DNA of 64,000 bases from a virus. Location of the stretch: IMG/VR virus record IMGVR_UViG_3300029451_000002, positions 1-64,000 of that record; one strand, 5' to 3'. The position numbers and the translations under genes were made by a program. Positions 42,371-59,204 of this stretch are shown here, piece by piece (within the stretch, counting starts at the first letter, position 1; each line of letters starts with the position of its first letter). The notes below the pieces were generated by a model. It made no database searches and was not told the DNA's origin. It was given only the letters and a program-made list of their open reading frames with translations.

Positions 42371-43104
42371 TAACAGCAAGTATGACATCGGGAGAGATGC
42401 GTAGAGTACGAAACTTAGATGAAGCTAGAATCTATGAGTTTCAGATGCGAAAAGCTAATGAGCTTAAACGTGAAATGAGAAAGCAGAACGTAAGACAAAT
42501 AACAAAGACCTTTGAGCTTGCTACACCTAATGCCGATTATTTCATCGTTGTAGGTGTAAAACATGGCGATGTATTTGCTTCCGGTTTGTTCATTTATCTG
42601 AAGGAAACCAACGAGTATATTCCTATGAGTAGAAACGAGGGGTATAGCGAAGATTGTTTTGCTATGAGCGTTCATTTTCTGAAGAGATTTGCAGAAAGGT
42701 TTTTGAAAAAAGACTTACCGATTCTCAAGATATTGCAAAAGATATATACATCGTTTACAGGTGCTGTTCAGCTCTATAGTGATGACAAGACAAGAAGAGT
42801 GGTATTTGCTATTCCGGAAGGGCTTATACTCACAGAATACGAGCAAGAAAAGCATATCATCCATTACAAAACCTTTGTAAGCATGGATATGCTAAAGAAG
42901 ACACAGAAGCGAAGTTATGAGAAGATAAGTGCATTTCTCATGGAGTCTTGTCAGCAAATAGCTAAAGCAAGAGACACCGGAAATGACGAAAGGCTGTGCG
43001 TTGTGTACAGAAGGTTTTACAATGATATTGATTTGCTAGATACAAAGGAGGCGCAAGCCATATATTCAAGTTTCTTTGAAAAAGGAGGTAACAATGAAAG
43101 ATAA
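42361..43104 (+). CDS. hypothetical protein, start overlaps the C5-methyltransferase stop
   Basis: 10-nt overlap with the C5-methyltransferase stop; 247 aa; no recognised motif. Confidence 0.45.
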   Translation: MRMITASMTSGEMRRVRNLDEARIYEFQMRKANELKREMRKQNVRQITKTFELATPNADYFIVVGVKHGDVFASGLFIYLKETNEYIPMSRNEGYSEDCFAMSVHFLKRFAERFLKKDLPILKILQKIYTSFTGAVQLYSDDKTRRVVFAIPEGLILTEYEQEKHIIHYKTFVSMDMLKKTQKRSYEKISAFLMESCQQIAKARDTGNDERLCVVYRRFYNDIDLLDTKEAQAIYSSFFEKGGNNER

Positions 43105-43597
43105 ATGTATAACAAGGTTTCTTGGTGATATAAAGCCTATAAAGAATTACGAAAGGTATTATGTTAGCAAGCTGGGACATGTTTTTACTATTGGGAGAAC
43201 GTCTCAATTAAAGGAAATCGTACCTTGCAAGACACCAAAAGGTTATCTGAAGGTATGGCTTTACAAGAACGGAAAGCGCAAGATGTTTTATATCCATCGT
43301 TTGGTAGCTCAGGCTTTCTTGGAGAATCCAGAAGCGTTGCCGATGGTGAATCATAAGGATTTCGACAAGACGAATAACGATGTAGACAACTTGGAGTATT
43401 GCACCGCAAGATACAATGTGATTTATTCTGCTATAGCAAAGAAAACCTCTTCCGAATATTTGGGTGTGACTTGGAATAAGAGTGTAAGAAAATGGCAAGC
43501 GCAGTATCAGATAGGTAAAAAGAAAATATATATAGGTTGCTTTGATACGCAACAAGAGGCTCATGAAGCTTATGTTAACGCTATAAAAGAGATTTGA
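43094..43597 (+). CDS. HNH endonuclease with AP2 DNA-binding domain (homing-endonuclease-like)
   Basis: NHKDFDKTNNDVDNLEYCTARYN (HNH_3-like) plus EYLGVTWNKSVRKWQAQYQIGKKKIYIGCFDTQQEAHEAY (AP2 domain). Confidence 0.65.
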   Translation: MKDKCITRFLGDIKPIKNYERYYVSKLGHVFTIGRTSQLKEIVPCKTPKGYLKVWLYKNGKRKMFYIHRLVAQAFLENPEALPMVNHKDFDKTNNDVDNLEYCTARYNVIYSAIAKKTSSEYLGVTWNKSVRKWQAQYQIGKKKIYIGCFDTQQEAHEAYVNAIKEI

Positions 43598-45242: not shown

Positions 45243-45872
45243 ATGAGAAGAAGAAAGTTGAACAAGTCTCCAGTGCTAGGCTTCTGCGGATTTGTTATCG
45301 GTTACGAATGCAAGGAAAAGGGAATAAAGCTGATGGAGTGCGATAAGGCGCAAGCAGATGCAATCATAGTTCCTCATCACTTTTCACACAAGGTAACGAA
45401 GAATAGTTGCTTGAATCTTTTGGTATTGTATAAGGATAAGATAAGGGGTGCAATGCAAATAGGGTATGGAATCCGACCTCACATCAAGACTGAAAAGGGC
45501 GAAGTGTTGGATTACCATCAAGTGAGGGAATTTGACAGAATGTGGTTGTCTGATGATATGCCAAAGTTTAGCGAGACGATTTGCCTATCTCTCTTGCATA
45601 AGTATATTAGGGCAACACATAAGGAAATCAAGTACCTTATATCTTATGCCGATACGTCCATAGGTAACAAGGGAACTATATATAAAGCTGCAAACTATGA
45701 GCATATTGATACCATTAAGGCAGATTTCTATGTGTTACCAAGTGGTGAGCGTGTGCATCCGGTTACGATGTGGCATCGGCACAAGACAAGAGCATGGGAG
45801 GTTCTAACGAAGCTATACCCAGGAATAAAAAAGGCAGAAGGGTTTCAACTTAAATTTCTGAAGAAGTTATGA
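45243..45872 (+). CDS. hypothetical protein within the methyltransferase island
   Basis: 209 aa; RGAMQIGYG resembles an acyl-CoA-binding GNAT motif. Confidence 0.4.
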   Translation: MRRRKLNKSPVLGFCGFVIGYECKEKGIKLMECDKAQADAIIVPHHFSHKVTKNSCLNLLVLYKDKIRGAMQIGYGIRPHIKTEKGEVLDYHQVREFDRMWLSDDMPKFSETICLSLLHKYIRATHKEIKYLISYADTSIGNKGTIYKAANYEHIDTIKADFYVLPSGERVHPVTMWHRHKTRAWEVLTKLYPGIKKAEGFQLKFLKKL

Positions 45873-46446: not shown

Positions 46447-47220
46447 ATGATAGAGCTGAATAAGATATATAATGAGGATTGTCTAGTGGGAATGAAACAG
46501 ATTCCGGACGTAAGTGTGGATTGTATTATCTGCGATTTGCCTTATGGCGTTCTCAATAAAAAGAGTGAGGGCGGTGGCTGGGATAGCATTATTCCGTTTG
46601 AACCATTGTGGAAAGAATATCTGCGCATAACAAAACCTAATGCAGCGATTATTCTTTTCTGTCAAGGTATGTATACCGCACAGCTTATGATGTCGCAGCC
46701 GAAACTTTGGAAATATAATCTTATTTGGAGCAAGCAGCGGGTAACAGGCTTTTTGAATGCCAACAAGATGCCTCTGCGCTCGCATGAGGATATTGCCGTA
46801 TTCTATCGGAAACAACCTATCTACAATCCTCAGATGGTAAAATGTGCGCCACATCAAAGAAATCATCGAAGAGGCGACGGTTCTCATAGTTTGAAACGAG
46901 GTTGCTATGGCGATCATAAAGAAGTGCCTACTATCGTATCAGATGAGAAATTTCCAAAGAGCATTCTCTGCTTCGACAAGGAACATTCTGCCGACACTTT
47001 CCACCCCACTCAAAAGCCAGTCGCTCTTATTCAGTACCTCATCCGTACCTACTCCAACGAGGGCGACACCATCTTAGACAACTGCATGGGCAGCGGCACT
47101 ACCGCCATCGCCTGCATCAGAGAAAAGAGGAACTTCATCGGCTTTGAGATGAACAAAGAATATTACGACAAGGCTTGTAAGCGCATTAAGTTAGAAATGA
47201 TGCAACCAAGCCTATTCTAA
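46447..47220 (+). CDS. DNA amino-methyltransferase (N6A/N4C, PF01555-like)
   Basis: DCIICDLPYGV (motif IV) before LDNCMGSGTTAIAC (motif I). Confidence 0.8.
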   Translation: MIELNKIYNEDCLVGMKQIPDVSVDCIICDLPYGVLNKKSEGGGWDSIIPFEPLWKEYLRITKPNAAIILFCQGMYTAQLMMSQPKLWKYNLIWSKQRVTGFLNANKMPLRSHEDIAVFYRKQPIYNPQMVKCAPHQRNHRRGDGSHSLKRGCYGDHKEVPTIVSDEKFPKSILCFDKEHSADTFHPTQKPVALIQYLIRTYSNEGDTILDNCMGSGTTAIACIREKRNFIGFEMNKEYYDKACKRIKLEMMQPSLF

Positions 47221-47239
47221 AACGTAAATAGTTGAGAAT

Positions 47240-47626
47240 ATGAAAAAAGAAGATAGACTTAAAATATATCGCAAATACGATGGGCATTGTGCTTATTGCG
47301 GCAAGAGTATAGAGTATAAGGATATGCAGGTTGACCATCTTGTTCCGAAGAATCGAGGTTGTTACTCTCGGTGGAGCGACAAGGAGGGAAAGTTTGTCGT
47401 ATCCCATGGCGATGAATCCATGGAGAACTATATGCCATCTTGCAGGTCTTGTAATCTTCGTAAGCGTGATATGAGTTTGGAACAATTTCGCTCAGAGATT
47501 ACTAGACAGGCTAAAGGATTGCTTAATGGTAAGGCTTCTTTCCAAGTAAAGATGTCGCTTGCTTATGGTTTAATCGAAGAGCACTTTGATAGACAAATTG
47601 AGTTCTACTTTGAGAAATTTAAATAG
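47240..47626 (+). CDS. HNH endonuclease (free-standing, homing-type), copy 1
   Basis: DGHCAYCG...QVDHLVPKNRG...NYMPSCRSCN; about 70% identical to 55752..56165. Confidence 0.75.
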   Translation: MKKEDRLKIYRKYDGHCAYCGKSIEYKDMQVDHLVPKNRGCYSRWSDKEGKFVVSHGDESMENYMPSCRSCNLRKRDMSLEQFRSEITRQAKGLLNGKASFQVKMSLAYGLIEEHFDRQIEFYFEKFK

Positions 47627-47634
47627 TTGGGAAT

Positions 47635-47919
47635 ATGAAGAAGTTTAAGAAGTCGATAGAGATTAGCACTGAGAATATTTCAGACGTTCTTCAAGTGCCA
47701 ATTGTTACAAGTTTATACAAGACTAAGAATTTTAAAAATCCTTGTCTTGAAGGTAGTAGCGTTCCTTATGATACTATAGCACTGATGTATGTTCATATCG
47801 AAGGCTTTGATAGCGATTTTTGTATTAACCAAGGCAACATTCTCGCTCTTGACATTTGTGATACTTGGTATGCCTTTTCAAGAGCAGGGTGGGAGAAACA
47901 TAAAAACGATGAGGTATGA
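47635..47919 (+). CDS. hypothetical protein
   Basis: ATG ORF. Confidence 0.4.
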   Translation: MKKFKKSIEISTENISDVLQVPIVTSLYKTKNFKNPCLEGSSVPYDTIALMYVHIEGFDSDFCINQGNILALDICDTWYAFSRAGWEKHKNDEV

Positions 47920-55187: not shown

Positions 55188-55493
55188 ATGGAAAATAATA
55201 TGTTTGAAGATATTGTTGCTGAAGGCAATATAGTTGTGATAAATAATAATTGGATTGTGTTATGTAAGCGTTGGAGACCAGAGTGTTACAATCTCTTCTG
55301 CTATCTTTATCTTCATAAGGAAGATAAGAATTTAATGGTAGGCTCTCATTTCACAATGACCGAGGATAAAAAGAAATCTACTCGGTTGGCTACCAACGAG
55401 GAGCGTCTTATGCTTTTTGAAGAAATGTTCAAGTATGGAATTGCTTTCGATAAGCACGACCATCATTTGATTGGAAAATTGATTAGCGTATGA
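55188..55493 (+). CDS. hypothetical protein
   Basis: ATG ORF. Confidence 0.4.
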   Translation: MENNMFEDIVAEGNIVVINNNWIVLCKRWRPECYNLFCYLYLHKEDKNLMVGSHFTMTEDKKKSTRLATNEERLMLFEEMFKYGIAFDKHDHHLIGKLISV

Positions 55494-55786
55494 AGATTAG
55501 ACTAGCAAAGAAGATAATGAAGCAAGCTCGTCATCTAAGTACGGCAAGTGATTATTGGTACAGAAGATTAAGAGATTTTGAGTACAAAATATGCTATGGC
55601 TTTGTTGGTAAAAAAGACCACCGCATCACCAAGGCGATAAGTTTAACAAGTAAAAAGAGAAAAATGAGAATAAAAGATACTGACACTTTTGTGGATTTAA
55701 GTAAAGAAGATAAGGATGCTTTAGATACTTGGGCACATTATTGTAAACAACATGAAGGTTATGAAAGAAATGAAGAAGGAAACTAG
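55490..55786 (+). CDS. hypothetical protein
   Basis: ATG ORF. Confidence 0.4.
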   Translation: MKIRLAKKIMKQARHLSTASDYWYRRLRDFEYKICYGFVGKKDHRITKAISLTSKKRKMRIKDTDTFVDLSKEDKDALDTWAHYCKQHEGYERNEEGN

Positions 55787-56165
55787 ACTAAAGGTATATC
55801 GTATGTATGATGGTCATTGTGCCTATTGTGGCAGGACTATAGAGTACAAGGATATGCAAGTAGACCATATTGTTCCCAAAAACAGAGGAATGTATTCCAG
55901 ATGGGATGAGAAACAAGGCAAGTTCGCAGTAACTCAAGGCGAGGATAGCTTAGAGAACTATATGCCAGCTTGCCGTGCTTGTAACTTCCGTAAGAGGGAT
56001 ATGACCTTAGAACAGTTCAGAGCAGAAATAAAGAGGCAGGCGGTTGGCTTGCTAAGTGGCACTGCCAAGTTTCAAATGAAGATGAGTATTGCCTATGGTC
56101 TTATTATTCCTCAGTTCGATAAGAAGGTAGTGTTTTATTTTGAGAAAGTTAAACGTAAAGATTAA
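55752..56165 (+). CDS. HNH endonuclease (free-standing, homing-type), copy 2
   Basis: Paralog of 47240..47626; sits immediately upstream of rtcB. Confidence 0.75.
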   Translation: MKVMKEMKKETRLKVYRMYDGHCAYCGRTIEYKDMQVDHIVPKNRGMYSRWDEKQGKFAVTQGEDSLENYMPACRACNFRKRDMTLEQFRAEIKRQAVGLLSGTAKFQMKMSIAYGLIIPQFDKKVVFYFEKVKRKD

Positions 56166-56170
56166 GAGAT

Positions 56171-57376
56171 ATGAATGAGTTTACAAAGATTTTCGCAAAG
56201 ACAATAGAAGATGAAGCTATCAAACAGATAGAAACCCTATCTAATAGCGAGGCTTACAATAGTTGTAAAATAAGAATAATGCCAGATTGCCATGCAGGTA
56301 AAGGATGCACTATTGGCACGGTAATAGAGCTTGATAACAGAGTAGTTCCTAACACTGTTGGAGTAGATATAGGCTGCGGCATGAAAGTCGTAAGACTTGG
56401 TAAAGTTGATATTGACTTGCAGAAATTTGATGAAGCAGTCAATAAGTTGATTCCGTCTGGTTTTAATGTCAACGAGGGAGAAGTATCAGCCTGCATAAAC
56501 GGATTGGTTGATGGTTGTATGTTTGGCAAATTCCGTGCTTGGGATTGTCTTGACAGCATGGAAATAGTATATCGTTCTGTTGGAAGTCTTGGCGGTGGCA
56601 ATCACTTTATTGAGTTAGATGCAAATGAAGAAGGAGAGAAGTTTCTTGTGATACATACAGGAAGTAGAAACCTTGGTGTTAGGGTATGCAACTATTACCA
56701 AAAACTTGCCTACGAGTATTGCCGTAAGAAAATAGCTGATAAGTCTGAGGTTATTGCCAAGCTAAAAAGCGAAGGCAGAGAAAATGAGATACAGAGTGTT
56801 ATTAAGTCATTAGGTACTAAAAATATAAGCAAGGAACTTTCTTACTTGGAAGGTGATTTGCTCAATGACTACCTCAATGATATGCGCATAGTTCAAAAAT
56901 ATGCTGAACGAAACAGAATGATTATCGCCAACAGACTTGTAAATGCTTTAGGTGTAGATATTGATGCTAATTCAGATAAGTATTCTTTTACAACCATTCA
57001 CAACTATATAGATACAGACAAGGGTATATTGCGAAAGGGAGCTATCAGTGCAAAAAAGGATGAGGTAGTCATTATCCCAATGAATATGCGTGATGGTTCT
57101 CTTATCTGCAAGGGAAAAGGTAACAAAGATTGGCTATGCTCTGCCCCTCATGGCGCAGGTAGATTAATGTCTCGTACACAGGCAAAGAAAGAGTTATCTA
57201 TGGATTCTTACAAGAATGAAATGAATGGTATTTATTCCACATCAGTTTGTGAAGAAACCATTGATGAAGCACCTATGGCATACAAGCCAACCGAAGAGAT
57301 TGTTGAGTTAATCAAACCTACGGTTGATGTCATTGATGTCATTAAGCCAATTTACAACTTCAAAGCAAAATTATAA
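56171..57376 (+). CDS. rtcB: RNA 3'-phosphate/5'-OH ligase RtcB
   Basis: MPDCHAGKGCTIG, GVDIGCGM, GGGNHFIELD, HNYID, APHGAGR: the full set of RtcB metal- and GTP-binding motifs. Confidence 0.85.
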   Translation: MNEFTKIFAKTIEDEAIKQIETLSNSEAYNSCKIRIMPDCHAGKGCTIGTVIELDNRVVPNTVGVDIGCGMKVVRLGKVDIDLQKFDEAVNKLIPSGFNVNEGEVSACINGLVDGCMFGKFRAWDCLDSMEIVYRSVGSLGGGNHFIELDANEEGEKFLVIHTGSRNLGVRVCNYYQKLAYEYCRKKIADKSEVIAKLKSEGRENEIQSVIKSLGTKNISKELSYLEGDLLNDYLNDMRIVQKYAERNRMIIANRLVNALGVDIDANSDKYSFTTIHNYIDTDKGILRKGAISAKKDEVVIIPMNMRDGSLICKGKGNKDWLCSAPHGAGRLMSRTQAKKELSMDSYKNEMNGIYSTSVCEETIDEAPMAYKPTEEIVELIKPTVDVIDVIKPIYNFKAKL

Positions 57377-57499
57377 TGAGCAAGGAAACTGGGAGGAAGT
57401 GGAAGAATGAAAAAGAAGTATAGTTTCGCAAACGCCAAGCCTGTTCCTTTATAAAGAGTCAAAAAAGCTTGGTATTAAACAAGAGTTGCGATTGCTTTA

Positions 57500-57535
57500 A
57501 AAAGGGTAGGGGAAGTTATTCTTCCCCTATCTCTT
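57500..57535. terminator. Bidirectional terminator hairpin at the convergence point
   Basis: aggggaag-ttatt-cttcccct. Confidence 0.5.
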
Positions 57536-57953
57536 TTAAACCCAAATCTATTAATAGCTTATCCAATATTTCATTCACGTCATTACGGAAACTTCGGTAA
57601 GTAACATAATAGAAACTGATGTTTTTGTAATCATGGCTTACATTAGAACATGTACACCCCAAAACCTTAGCGATTTTTTCTCTTAACCCTCTTCTCATCT
57701 TAGAACCGCCAAGGGCACTAGGAGAATAAAGATAAAGAATAACAAAGATAAATTGCTTGCGTACCATTGTGGAATTTCGTCCGGCATGATAGCTCATAAA
57801 CTTATCGTAAATATTGCCTACTTGCGATAAGTCTTGCATCAATGGAATGGAAAGACTTATTTCTTCCTTGGATAAGATGGCCTTAGTTTCTCTAATCCAT
57901 TTTATGCGTTCCATGATTTTCTTTAGATTCATTTCAATGTCTGGTTCTTTCAT
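57516..57953 (-). CDS. hypothetical protein
   Basis: Last gene of the leftward operon. Confidence 0.45.
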   Translation of the reverse strand: MKEPDIEMNLKKIMERIKWIRETKAILSKEEISLSIPLMQDLSQVGNIYDKFMSYHAGRNSTMVRKQFIFVILYLYSPSALGGSKMRRGLREKIAKVLGCTCSNVSHDYKNISFYYVTYRSFRNDVNEILDKLLIDLGLKEIGEE

Positions 57954-58108: not shown

Positions 58109-58651
58109 TCATTTTATTTCGATAAGCGTTAAAATACAATACCCCAATAAATCTTTATAGCTGTCTAGGACAGGCTCTTCTTTAGCATCCTCGTTCAAAG
58201 TCAGCAAAGAGCAAATACGATTAATCTTCTCTTGCAAATGACCGAAGGCATACGGATAACCATCTTTAGCAAAACATTCAGAAAATGCGTTTCCATACCG
58301 CTTATTTTTGGTTTTGAACAATTCGATTTGCGACTCGATGATGTCGTTATAATCTGAAACAATATACCAAGAGAGCGTAAGCAAGGCTTCCATCGCCATT
58401 ACACTGATATGGCTTCGTAAGGTTTCTTTGTCTTCAGAAGATGCTCGTATCCCATACATAAGACGAAGGAAATTGGCTGCGCTTGAAAATAATCCGAGCT
58501 TTCCGAAGTCCTCCCTTAGAGATGAAACGAAAGTGGCATTATCCTTGCATTCAATCATGTCTGCCAAACGTCTTATCACAAAGATATACTTGTTAGCATA
58601 TTCGCAACACCCATTGTTATTTTGTTCCACCATGTCCGTATCCTCCTCCAC
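58109..58651 (-). CDS. putative MazG-like nucleotide pyrophosphohydrolase
   Basis: KNKRYGNAF...G....L.EKINR pattern resembling the MazG family. Confidence 0.3.
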   Translation of the reverse strand: MEEDTDMVEQNNNGCCEYANKYIFVIRRLADMIECKDNATFVSSLREDFGKLGLFSSAANFLRLMYGIRASSEDKETLRSHISVMAMEALLTLSWYIVSDYNDIIESQIELFKTKNKRYGNAFSECFAKDGYPYAFGHLQEKINRICSLLTLNEDAKEEPVLDSYKDLLGYCILTLIEIK

Positions 58652-59204
58652 GATTATTTTCCATATTCAACTCTCCAAGTATGCAATCTGGATTTTCTAC
58701 CTTGCGGAATGCGCCCTGGCAAACACGAGTGCCTTTCTTGACTACGAAAACATAATATTCGTAATCTGAATCTAGTTTAAATTTGCTATCCTTTGTCGGC
58801 ATATAACGGTCGGAATTAACTCTATAAAGCGCACCAATATTGTCCCTATAATCTTCATCGACCAGACCTAGGCAAATATCAATATCCGCTCTAACATTAG
58901 TCATGTAACCAACTCGTGTTTCGTTCTTGCCAATAAAGGCCACATCAACTTGCATACCTTTGTCAGTAAAGCCAGAACGTGAACGAATATCCAAGCCAAC
59001 ATCTTTAGGAAGTTCCACGCCTAAATGCAGATTTATGTGACCTCTTCCCATTTTCACCCAAGGCATATTCAATACCACATCTTGTGGACAGTAAAAATCA
59101 ACTGCCGCAGCATTACCTTCCTTATAAGGAACACGACCACCTCGCAAGTCAAGTACATAAGCCTTGCCTTGTGCTACTAACTTCTTTATTAACTCCTTAT
59201 CCAT
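58617..59204 (-). CDS. dut: dUTP diphosphatase (dUTPase)
   Basis: AAAVDFY, IRSRSG, GLVDEDYRDNIG, NRGGGYGHGG correspond to dUTPase motifs 1, 2, 3 and 5. Confidence 0.75.
   Translation of the reverse strand: MDKELIKKLVAQGKAYVLDLRGGRVPYKEGNAAAVDFYCPQDVVLNMPWVKMGRGHINLHLGVELPKDVGLDIRSRSGFTDKGMQVDVAFIGKNETRVGYMTNVRADIDICLGLVDEDYRDNIGALYRVNSDRYMPTKDSKFKLDSDYEYYVFVVKKGTRVCQGAFRKVENPDCILGELNMENNRGGGYGHGGTK

What the first reader, a model, noticed from the sequence alone, without database searches (positions are those of the whole stretch)
55752..57376. RtcB RNA ligase preceded by an HNH homing-endonuclease paralog, in a genome carrying Glu/Gln/Lys/Tyr tRNAs
56171..57376 has every RtcB signature (MPDCHAGKG, GVDIGCGM, GGGNHFIE, HNY, PHGAGR). 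RtcB repairs 2',3'-cyclic-phosphate/5'-OH RNA breaks of the kind made by anticodon nucleases. Together with phage-encoded tRNAs for Glu, Gln and Lys, the classic anticodon-nuclease targets, this looks like a tRNA repair or replacement counter-defence package. The HNH gene at 55752 is about 70% identical to the HNH at 47240 beside the methyltransferase island. Such free-standing HNH genes are mobile, so rtcB may have arrived by, or be maintained through, homing.
Basis: partly seen in the sequence, partly recalled or inferred. Interest (0 to 1): 0.55.

Follow-up and report, generated by a model that had tools for sequence, protein, structure and literature searches.

The report
Phage RtcB ligase beside mobile HNH
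A common human-gut phage carries an intact RNA-sealing ligase (RtcB) as an optional gene, with a small selfish HNH nuclease gene inserted just before it; both are familiar kinds of phage gene, and the proposed link to the phage's own tRNAs is not supported by how the genes are inherited.

Summary
ORF 56171-57376 is a full-length RtcB with every catalytic residue. An HNH nuclease gene lies 5 nt upstream, and a paralog with 72% amino-acid identity lies at 47240-47626. Five tRNA genes, not four, lie at 31974-32409.

This is an ordinary kind of gene. RtcB matches a phage family (PHROG 1075, E=1e-131) and has homologs in 689 phage records. The idea that it repairs cleaved tRNA was published in 2011 and 2021.

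Comparison with about 300 near-identical gut-phage loci adds four points.
- The HNH next to rtcB is present in only 13 of 81 related rtcB loci, plus one remnant.
- HNH relatives sit directly before at least seven different genes, always ending 3-8 nt before the next ATG. All HNH-bearing loci share one haplotype over the first ~300 nt of rtcB. These are signs of a mobile cassette.
- rtcB itself is optional: present in 41 of 76 loci, absent in 35. It sits in a cassette-exchange hotspot, next to a Tad2-like anti-defence gene in relatives.
- The tRNA cluster is present in all 60 relatives scanned, including at least 17 contigs without rtcB. So there is no co-inherited package.

RtcB probably reseals RNA cut by host RNases. 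Its substrate is unknown.

The parts
56171..57376 (+). rtcB: 3'-phosphate/2',3'-cyclic-phosphate RNA ligase, 401 aa, the last gene of the rightward block
   Evidence: PF01139 at E=3e-64. PHROG 1075 at E=1e-131. 29% identity and E=1e-49 to E. coli RtcB1. Catalytic residues D66, C69, N144, H145, H162, R166, H277, H327, R331 and R335 are aligned.
55770..56165 (+). HNH-B: free-standing HNH (beta-beta-alpha-Me) nuclease gene, 131 aa from the conserved start. The longest ORF starts at 55752. The stop codon is 5 nt before the rtcB ATG.
   Evidence: PF01844 at 39.8 bits. PHROG 2118 at E=3e-36. Read from the sequence: CxxC...DH...N...CxxCN. Present in only 13 of 81 related rtcB loci.
55670..56145 (+). 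Segment present in the window but absent from the empty-site relative MT835597.1. It comprises HNH-B plus about 100 nt upstream.
   Evidence: blastn of window against L001: 54949-55669 and 56146-57388 are contiguous in L001.
55490..55786 (+). Upstream small ORF. The conserved 57-aa core is 55490-55660. Here it reads on for 41 more codons into the inserted segment.
   Evidence: The 57-aa form ends directly before rtcB in about 40 relatives.
56171..56470 (+). First ~300 nt of rtcB, which are linked to HNH-B: a tract that looks like co-conversion.
   Evidence: Identity among HNH-bearing loci is 99.3-99.7%, against 93-98% between HNH-bearing and HNH-free loci. There is no difference beyond nt 300. 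All 14 HNH-bearing loci carry 5' haplotype I, against 32 of 68 HNH-free loci; Fisher p=1.6e-4.
47240..47626 (+). HNH-A: paralogous HNH cassette, 128 aa
   Evidence: 72% amino-acid identity to HNH-B. Present in 74 of 79 loci anchored on the downstream gene and cleanly absent in 5, a difference of 393 bp.
47226..47244 (+). Left copy of the 19-nt direct repeat AAATAGTTGAGAATATGAA that flanks HNH-A
   Evidence: Empty sites (L265, L271, L298, L320) have a single copy.
47621..47639 (+). Right copy of the direct repeat (AAATAGTTGGGAATATGAA). It spans the HNH-A stop codon, the ribosome-binding spacer and the ATG of the next gene.
31974..32409 (+). tRNA cluster: Glu(UUC), Gln(UUG), Tyr(GUA), a Thr-derived tRNA with an 8-nt anticodon loop, and Lys(UUU)
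   Evidence: ARAGORN. Rfam RF00005 at 39-67 bits. Conserved in 60 of 60 relatives whether or not they carry rtcB.
57377..57515 (.). Scar of a ~2-kb deletion downstream of rtcB, with a hairpin at 57507-57529
   Evidence: Relatives have 2.1 kb of small ORFs here, including a Tad2-like gene. Remnants of 18 aa each lie at 57407-57460 and 57444-57497. Terminator-like hairpin.
57516..57953 (-). Conserved convergent 145-aa gene, used as the anchor to score rtcB presence or absence
   Evidence: 97-100% identical in 80 loci.

Best explanation
The window comes from an abundant human-gut tailed phage, probably of a Bacteroidota host.

1. ORF 56171-57376 encodes a catalytically complete, stand-alone RtcB-type ligase. 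By the established RtcB mechanism it would be guanylylated on His327. It would transfer GMP to an RNA 3'-phosphate, formed from a 2',3'-cyclic phosphate, and then join that end to a 5'-OH end. The chemistry is inferred from residue conservation.
2. rtcB is an optional gene. About half of otherwise near-identical phages carry it. It occupies one slot in a cassette-exchange hotspot at the end of the rightward early-gene block. In most relatives a Tad2-like anti-defence gene follows it. The most likely role is to reseal RNA cut by metal-independent host RNases during infection. Such RNases include anticodon nucleases, toxin-antitoxin RNases and CRISPR-associated RNases. tRNA is one candidate substrate. 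This step is inferred.
3. The HNH gene just upstream is a separate selfish cassette of about 400 bp. It lands exactly at the start codon of a downstream gene and brings a replacement ribosome-binding spacer. It is polymorphic in the population and drags about 300 nt of the adjacent rtcB 5' sequence with it. It is not part of RtcB's function.
4. The tRNA cluster is a fixed feature of the lineage and is inherited independently of rtcB.

The confidence of 0.6 is for the whole statement. Broken down: gene identities about 0.95, HNH as a mobile cassette about 0.8, RtcB as counter-defence RNA repair about 0.5, and tRNA as its substrate about 0.3.
For: RtcB identity:
- PF01139 at E=3e-64 and PHROG 1075 at E=1e-131.
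- 29% identity and 160 bits to E. coli RtcB1, against 25% and 95 bits to RtcB2.
- All metal-binding, GMP-binding and guanylylation residues align.

rtcB is optional:
- Present in 41 and absent in 35 of 76 loci anchored on a gene that is 97-100% identical.
- One locus has a truncated copy (L212).
- Other cassettes occupy the same slot after the same upstream ORF.
- A Tad2-like gene (PF11195, 31.1 bits against a cut-off of 25) directly follows rtcB in relatives.

HNH mobility:
- HNH-B is in 13 of 81 loci, plus one 58-aa remnant.
- HNH-A is in 74 of 79 loci.
- There are at least seven downstream contexts, with the stop codon 3-8 nt before the next ATG.
- A 19-nt direct repeat flanks HNH-A, and empty sites have a single copy.
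- DNA homology between the two copies is limited to the coding sequence.
- The rtcB 5' tract is linked to HNH.
- The window's rtcB is 100% identical in nucleotides to L002 and L003, which lack HNH.

tRNAs are independent of rtcB: cross-referenced.

Phage clade rather than a recent host gene:
- The nearest named hits are phages of Bacteroides, Bacillus and Staphylococcus at 47-51%.
- No isolate bacterial genome has a close copy.
Against: - No biochemical or expression data exist, and the substrate is unknown.
- No partner gene was found (RtcA, archease, Pnkp, Rnl, PrfH) that would point to a pathway. Only about 57 of about 127 ORFs were scanned.
- Loss of rtcB in about half of the population shows it is dispensable. 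That could also mean it is a neutral passenger.
- The tract linked to HNH could reflect ordinary decay of linkage with distance in a highly recombining population, rather than nuclease-driven co-conversion. Haplotype I also occurs in 32 HNH-free loci.
- The loci are metagenomic contigs that are not phylogenetically independent, so the counts and the Fisher p-value overstate independence.
- The host is inferred only from distant capsid relatives and from a 1.1-kb contig binned with Segatella copri.
Confidence: 0.6

Rival explanations
1. RtcB and the phage tRNAs (Glu, Gln, Lys, Tyr) form one coordinated package against anticodon nucleases. The tRNAs replace cleaved host tRNAs and RtcB repairs them. 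rtcB is kept or spread by the adjacent homing endonuclease.
For: - RtcB seals the kind of ends that PrrC, RloC or colicin-type anticodon nucleases leave (established knowledge).
- Phage tRNA-Lys and tRNA-Tyr are shown counter-measures to PrrC, PARIS and retron-Eco7 in coliphages (PMC11555353, PMC11464382, PMC12409363).
- The phage's Thr(UGU)-derived tRNA has an anticodon loop that is hypervariable among near-identical relatives, while the Lys, Glu and Gln loops are invariant. This fits loop-mutation escape (PMC10264068).
- The same idea has been published for mycobacteriophages that carry tRNAs and RtcB (PMC3203893).
Against: - The tRNA cluster is in 60 of 60 relatives, including at least 17 contigs without rtcB.
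- The tRNA cluster and rtcB are 24 kb apart in different modules.
- About 67 of 81 rtcB loci lack the HNH.
- Lys and Glu are simply the most used amino acids in this phage, at 96 and 77 codons per 1000. Codon supply therefore explains part of the tRNA set.
- PARIS AriB is a Toprim (metal-dependent) nuclease. From general knowledge, its products would not be RtcB substrates.
Confidence: 0.2
2. RtcB repairs something other than tRNA. Candidates are 16S rRNA cut by colicin-E3-like ribotoxins (as RtcB2 does with PrfH), phage mRNA cut by toxin or CRISPR RNases, or DNA 3'-phosphate/5'-OH nicks.
For: - RtcB2 repairs the 30S subunit but not tRNA (PMC9304027, PMC9223846).
- The only NCBIfam models hit are RtcB2-type.
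- RtcB acting on DNA ends is recalled from the Shuman laboratory's work and was not checked here.
- The anti-defence neighbourhood (a Tad2-like gene in relatives) says nothing about substrate.
Against: - The scores are far below the RtcB2 cut-offs: 139.6 against 407, and 112.5 against 271.8.
- The protein is closer to E. coli RtcB1, the tRNA-repairing form, than to RtcB2.
- No prfH-like gene was found in the ORFs scanned.
Confidence: 0.2
3. rtcB is a neutral or decaying passenger in a hypervariable region. The HNH genes serve the phage, for example in DNA packaging with terminase or in degrading host DNA, rather than being selfish.
For: - rtcB is absent from 35 of 76 relatives, and one copy is truncated.
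- Small HNH proteins are known terminase cofactors in HK97-like phages (general knowledge).
- HNH-A is nearly fixed, at 74 of 79 loci.
Against: - RtcB proteins are 93-100% identical and full length in 80 loci, with all catalytic residues kept. This argues for purifying selection.
- The HNH genes are not next to packaging genes.
- The HNH genes occur in two or more copies and in at least seven contexts, and are cleanly absent from otherwise identical genomes.
Confidence: 0.1

Closest known systems
Phage-encoded RtcB ('tRNA splicing ligase', PHROG 1075), found in SPO1-like Bacillus phages, Listeria and Staphylococcus myoviruses, Cluster K1 mycobacteriophages, some jumbo phages, and Bacteroides phage BS-TP1
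   Same: Same family over the full length (E=1e-131). 47-51% identity to the nearest named phage proteins. Like them, it is a stand-alone gene in a phage that also encodes tRNAs.
   Different: It belongs to an uncultivated gut-phage lineage. It is shown here to be optional within the lineage and to carry a polymorphic HNH cassette at its start codon. No member of this phage family has, to my knowledge, a demonstrated in vivo role.
E. coli RtcB1 (the rtcBA operon, regulated by RtcR)
   Same: All catalytic residues are conserved, the length is similar (401 against 408 aa), and identity is 29%. The predicted chemistry is the same.
   Different: There is no RtcA cyclase and no RtcR regulator. There is an extra insert of about 25 aa at residues 177-200. 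The genome context is a phage.
Phage T4 Pnkp plus Rnl1, which counter the PrrC anticodon nuclease
   Same: The proposed logic is the same: the phage reseals host-inflicted RNA breaks that have 2',3'-cyclic-phosphate and 5'-OH ends.
   Different: The enzymes are unrelated and the route differs. T4 heals the ends and then seals them with an ATP-dependent ligase. RtcB joins them directly using GTP. No Pnkp or Rnl homolog was found here.
Free-standing homing endonuclease genes of T-even phages (the mob and seg genes; intronless homing)
   Same: A small nuclease ORF inserted between genes, present or absent among close relatives, with a linked flanking tract that looks like co-conversion.
   Different: This is a different HNH subfamily (PHROG 2118; the closest solved relatives are Cas9-type HNH domains and 4H9D). 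The cassette abuts the next gene's start codon with a 19-nt duplicated junction. Cleavage specificity is untested.
RtcB2-PrfH ribosome-repair module
   Same: RtcB superfamily. It is a defence against RNase toxins.
   Different: The match is below the family cut-offs, there is no PrfH partner, and the protein is closer to RtcB1.

Membership tests
RtcB RNA ligase (Pfam PF01139) | Full-length match to the family profile above the curated cut-off | tested here: met
   218.3 bits against a cut-off of 27, covering profile positions 13-425 of 426.
RtcB RNA ligase (Pfam PF01139) | Two-metal site and GMP site: Asp, Cys, Asn-His, His and His ligands, plus the histidine that is guanylylated (E. coli D75, C78, N167, H168, H185, H281, H337; residue roles recalled from the Shuman laboratory's work) | tested here: met
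   They align to D66, C69, N144, H145, H162, H277 and H327. R189, R341 and R345 align to R166, R331 and R335. The same motifs align to P. horikoshii RtcB.
RtcB RNA ligase (Pfam PF01139) | GTP- and Mn2+-dependent joining of 3'-phosphate or 2',3'-cyclic-phosphate ends to 5'-OH ends | not testable with these tools
   This needs a biochemical assay.
Phage RtcB family (PHROG 1075) | Profile match over the whole protein | tested here: met
   E=1.1e-131, residues 5-400.
RtcB2, PrfH-coupled (TIGR03073 / PRK09588) | Score above the curated cut-off | tested here: not met
   112.5 against 271.8, and 139.6 against 407.
RtcB2, PrfH-coupled (TIGR03073 / PRK09588) | An adjacent prfH gene | tested here: not met
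   The neighbours are the HNH gene (upstream) and a convergent 145-aa gene (downstream). Neither is similar to a release factor.
HNH endonuclease (PF01844, beta-beta-alpha-Me) | Profile match above the cut-off, plus the catalytic His, the Asn residues and two CxxC zinc knuckles | tested here: met
   39.8 bits against 21.4. The sequence reads C-AY-C ... VDH ... ENYMP ... C-RA-C-N in both copies. PHROG 2118 at E=3e-36.
Free-standing homing endonuclease gene | Present or absent at the same site among close relatives | tested here: met
   HNH-B is in 13 of 81 loci. HNH-A is in 74 of 79 loci, with clean empty sites.
Free-standing homing endonuclease gene | The same gene found at several unrelated sites | tested here: met
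   At least seven different downstream genes.
Free-standing homing endonuclease gene | Co-conversion of flanking markers with the nuclease gene | tested here: inconclusive
   The first ~300 nt of rtcB are nearly identical in all HNH-bearing loci. However, the same haplotype occurs in 32 HNH-free loci, so ordinary linkage is not excluded.
Free-standing homing endonuclease gene | Site-specific cleavage of the nuclease-free allele, and super-Mendelian inheritance in mixed infection | not testable with these tools
   This needs nuclease assays and phage crosses.
Terminase-associated HNH (HK97 gp74 type) | The gene sits next to the terminase or portal genes | tested here: not met
   Both copies lie among early or accessory genes. 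The neighbours are rtcB, methyltransferases and small ORFs.
T4-type heal-and-seal RNA repair (Pnkp + Rnl1/Rnl2) | Presence of a polynucleotide kinase-phosphatase and an ATP-dependent RNA ligase | tested here: not met
   None was found among about 57 ORFs scanned with Pfam, PHROGs or NCBIfam. The smaller ORFs were not scanned.

The most novel reading that the evidence does not exclude
This gut-phage lineage is in an ongoing arms race with tRNA-targeting host nucleases, visible in three layers. The first is a fixed set of replacement tRNAs. One of these, derived from Thr(UGU), has an expanded 8-nt anticodon loop that is diversifying among near-identical phages. The second is an optional RtcB that reseals cleaved RNA and is exchanged as a cassette in an anti-defence hotspot. 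The third is an HNH cassette that targets start codons and drives one rtcB 5' allele through the population by co-conversion.
Probability: 0.15. Interest if true: 0.6.

Novelty: new member of a known kind. Interest (0 to 1): 0.3.

Why it matters
The finding itself matters little. Phage RtcB genes, free-standing HNH genes and phage tRNA clusters are all well documented, and the tRNA-repair hypothesis is already in print.

What is useful is the population picture. There are hundreds of near-identical gut-phage contigs in which rtcB is present in about half. The HNH cassette is present in about a sixth of the rtcB-bearing ones. This natural presence/absence series could be matched against host defence repertoires, such as those of Segatella or Bacteroides strains. 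That comparison could finally test what phage RtcB is for. The same data give clean occupied and empty sites for testing an HNH nuclease that inserts at start codons.

Tried and rejected
- **RtcB2-type (ribosome repair) assignment.** I fetched E. coli RtcB1 and RtcB2. The phage protein is closer to RtcB1, and the RtcB2 models fall far below their cut-offs.
- **Host-derived rtcB.** A scan of 185,579 species genomes found near-identical copies only on two tiny mis-binned MAG contigs. Everything else was 49% identical or less.
- **Partner genes.** I looked for RtcA, archease, Pnkp, Rnl, PrfH and CCA-adding enzyme and found none.
- **tRNA introns that would need a splicing ligase.** All five tRNAs are of normal length and fit the Rfam tRNA model end to end.
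- **Extended DNA homology between the two HNH copies, as expected for a transposon-like unit.** The homology stops at the boundaries of the coding sequence.
- **Sigma-70 promoter scan around rtcB.** It found fewer hits than shuffled sequence, and it does not apply to Bacteroidota anyway.
- **Names for homologs.** The cluster look-up gave almost none.
- **Technical failure.** One MAFFT run timed out and was repeated with faster settings.
Full report

Yes. The ORF at 56171-57376 (+ strand, 401 aa) matches Pfam RtcB (PF01139) at E=3e-64 across almost the whole profile.

Five nucleotides upstream ends an HNH nuclease ORF (55752-56165; PF01844 at 39.8 bits against a cut-off of 21.4). Its paralog at 47240-47626 is 72% identical in protein and 70% in DNA. 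The DNA similarity begins at the ATG at 55770 and ends at the stop codon. All relatives also start at MKKE, MNKE or MSKE. So 55770 is the likelier start, and 55752 is simply the longest ORF.

The methyltransferase island beside the paralog is real.

ARAGORN and Rfam confirm tRNA-Glu(UUC), Gln(UUG), Tyr(GUA) and Lys(UUU) at 31974-32409. The cluster is 24 kb from rtcB.

**2. What kind of genome is this?**

The window carries several phage genes:
- a tape-measure gene
- a major head protein
- ThyX
- RNase H
- a helicase
- a Mom-like protein
- several DNA methyltransferases

The capsid's distant relatives are phages of Bacteroidota: Cellulophaga, Riemerella and Porphyromonas. The closest GenBank record is an unannotated human-faecal contig, MT835597.1.

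IMG/VR holds well over a hundred near-identical contigs of up to about 125 kb. The 90%-identity RtcB protein cluster has 2,094 member sequences. This is a common gut phage. A 1.1-kb contig with 96% identity was binned with a Segatella copri MAG, which is a weak hint at the host.

**3. The RtcB protein**

It belongs to the phage RtcB family, PHROG 1075 (E=1e-131). tblastn finds homologs in 689 phage records. The nearest named ones are at 47-51% identity: Bacteroides phage BS-TP1, SPO1-like Bacillus phages and a Staphylococcus phage.

RtcB2 paralogs repair 16S rRNA rather than tRNA (PMC9304027). I therefore fetched both E. coli paralogs for comparison. The phage protein is nearer to RtcB1 (29% identity, 160 bits) than to RtcB2 (25%, 95 bits). 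It falls far below the NCBIfam cut-offs for the RtcB2 models.

In a three-way alignment, every residue I recall as essential in E. coli RtcB1 is conserved. This includes the guanylylated His337, which aligns to His327. The same motifs align to the P. horikoshii structure. The enzyme is therefore very probably active.

No close copy exists in any isolate bacterial genome. So there is no sign of recent capture from a host.

No RtcA, archease, Pnkp, Rnl or PrfH was found among about 57 ORFs scanned.

**4. The HNH genes are mobile cassettes**

In MT835597.1 the upstream 57-aa ORF runs straight into rtcB. The window has an extra 476 bp (about 55670-56145) that contains the HNH gene.

Evidence across relatives:
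- Among 81 related loci whose RtcB is 93-100% identical, the HNH gene lies directly before rtcB in only 13. One further locus keeps a 58-aa remnant.
- Loci L002 and L003 have an rtcB identical in nucleotides to the window's but no HNH.
- The paralog HNH-A is present in 74 of 79 loci anchored on its downstream gene. It is cleanly missing from 5, a difference of 393 bp.
- Family members with 70-99% amino-acid identity sit before at least seven different genes. Each ends 3-8 nt before the next ATG.
- HNH-A is flanked by a 19-nt direct repeat (AAATAGTTG[A/G]GAATATGAA) at 47226-47244 and 47621-47639. The repeat spans a stop codon, a ribosome-binding spacer and an ATG. Empty sites have one copy. So the cassette lands at a start codon and supplies a new spacer for the displaced gene.
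- Among HNH-bearing loci, the first ~300 nt of rtcB are 99.3-99.7% identical. Between HNH-bearing and HNH-free loci the figure is 93-98%. Beyond nt 300 the two groups do not differ.
- All 14 HNH-bearing loci carry one 5' haplotype, against 32 of 68 HNH-free loci (Fisher p=1.6e-4; the samples are not independent).

This pattern is what co-conversion during homing would leave. Ordinary decay of linkage in a recombining population is not excluded, and cleavage was not tested.

**5. rtcB itself is optional**

I anchored on the conserved convergent 145-aa gene (57516-57953, 97-100% identical in 80 loci). rtcB is present in 41 of 76 informative loci and absent from 35. One copy is truncated.

In rtcB-free genomes, the same slot after the same upstream ORF holds other cassettes: a pair of 74-aa and 58-aa ORFs, or a YopX-like gene. 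Only about 3-6 nt upstream of the rtcB ATG are common to all contexts. Exchange therefore happens at gene boundaries.

In most relatives the gene right after rtcB is Tad2-like (PF11195, above its cut-off). The window has lost about 2 kb there and keeps only scars at 57407-57497.

An optional gene in a shuffling hotspot next to a known anti-defence family fits a counter-defence role. That is circumstantial.

**6. Is there a tRNA plus RtcB package?**

The five-gene tRNA cluster is present in all 60 relatives scanned. That includes at least 17 contigs that lack rtcB (cross-referenced). The two features are inherited independently and lie in different modules.

Codon counts show that Lys (96 per 1000) and Glu (77 per 1000) are the most used amino acids. 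Supply and demand therefore explains part of the tRNA set. It does not explain why Gln is included while Asp and Asn are not.

The replacement-tRNA idea has direct support in coliphages, for Lys, Tyr and Thr(UGU) (PMC11555353, PMC11464382, PMC12409363). The loop-mutation escape idea is published (PMC10264068). The RtcB-plus-tRNA speculation dates from 2011 (PMC3203893) and was repeated for jumbo phages in 2021 (PMC7824862).

These data neither confirm it nor exclude it, but they do show there is no obligate package.

**7. Side observation: the fifth tRNA**

The fifth tRNA (32260-32334) derives from Thr(UGU) and has an 8-nt anticodon loop, CUUGGUAA. Among 108 relatives the loop takes six forms:

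| Loop | Loci |
|---|---|
| CTTGGTAA | 90 |
| CTATGCAA | 5 |
| ATTGGTAA | 4 |
| TTTGGTAA | 4 |
| CATGGTAA | 3 |
| TTTGTAA (canonical) | 2 |

The rest of the tRNA is conserved. The Lys, Glu and Gln loops are invariant. This is the most unusual thing seen in the window, and it deserves its own assessment.

**8. Verdict**

The gene identities are secure. HNH mobility is well supported by comparative data. The 'package' and 'maintained by homing' ideas are not supported.

This is a new member of known kinds: phage RtcB, and a free-standing HNH cassette. Interest is modest (0.3). The main value is the natural presence/absence series, which could be used to test what phage RtcB does.

Noticed in passing
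window 32260-32334: A fifth tRNA, derived from Thr(UGU), has an 8-nt anticodon loop (CUUGGUAA); ARAGORN calls the anticodon 'tggt'. Among 108 near-identical relatives the loop takes six forms, including the canonical 7-nt UGU loop in two. The rest of the tRNA is conserved, and the Lys, Glu and Gln loops are invariant. It could be a quadruplet-decoding or frameshift-suppressor tRNA, or a variant that escapes a nuclease.
   Followed up: partly
window 46447-47220: This CcrM-like N6-adenine methyltransferase lies between the 93-aa ORF and HNH-A. It is absent from all 79 relatives anchored on the downstream gene, so it is a rare cassette insertion specific to this window's variant.
   Followed up: partly
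window 57377-57515: This is the scar of a ~2-kb deletion. Most relatives carry a Tad2-like (Thoeris anti-defence 2-like, PF11195) gene and six or seven small ORFs between rtcB and the convergent 145-aa gene. The window keeps only 18-aa remnants of two of them.
   Followed up: yes
window 43094-43597: A third HNH endonuclease gene from an unrelated family (phrog_59, E=3e-38) is wedged between methyltransferase genes.
   Followed up: no
window 33151-34690: An amidoligase (phrog_2443) and a protein that looks like a class-II glutamine amidotransferase lie immediately after the tRNA cluster and before the head genes. Their function here is unknown.
   Followed up: no
window 45243-45872: A Mom-family protein (PF25680, E=3e-35) lies inside the methyltransferase island. 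This suggests DNA hypermodification in addition to methylation.
   Followed up: no
window 58109-59204 (- strand): A DUF1599 protein ('nucleotide modification associated domain 1') overlaps a divergent dUTPase-like protein, in the convergent block facing rtcB.
   Followed up: no
L098 4001-4540; L021 upstream of rtcB: L098 has an HNH-B-type gene (91% identity) at the same locus but no rtcB after it. L021 has rtcB preceded by only the last ~14 nt of the HNH 3' end. Both look like recombination products with breakpoints at the cassette junctions.
   Followed up: partly
phage records MT835481.1, KJ081346.1 (BCP8-2), OL964058.1: In these other phages the rtcB homolog is split into two tblastn pieces about 0.9 kb apart. 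This fits intein-containing RtcB genes, for which NCBIfam has models.
   Followed up: no
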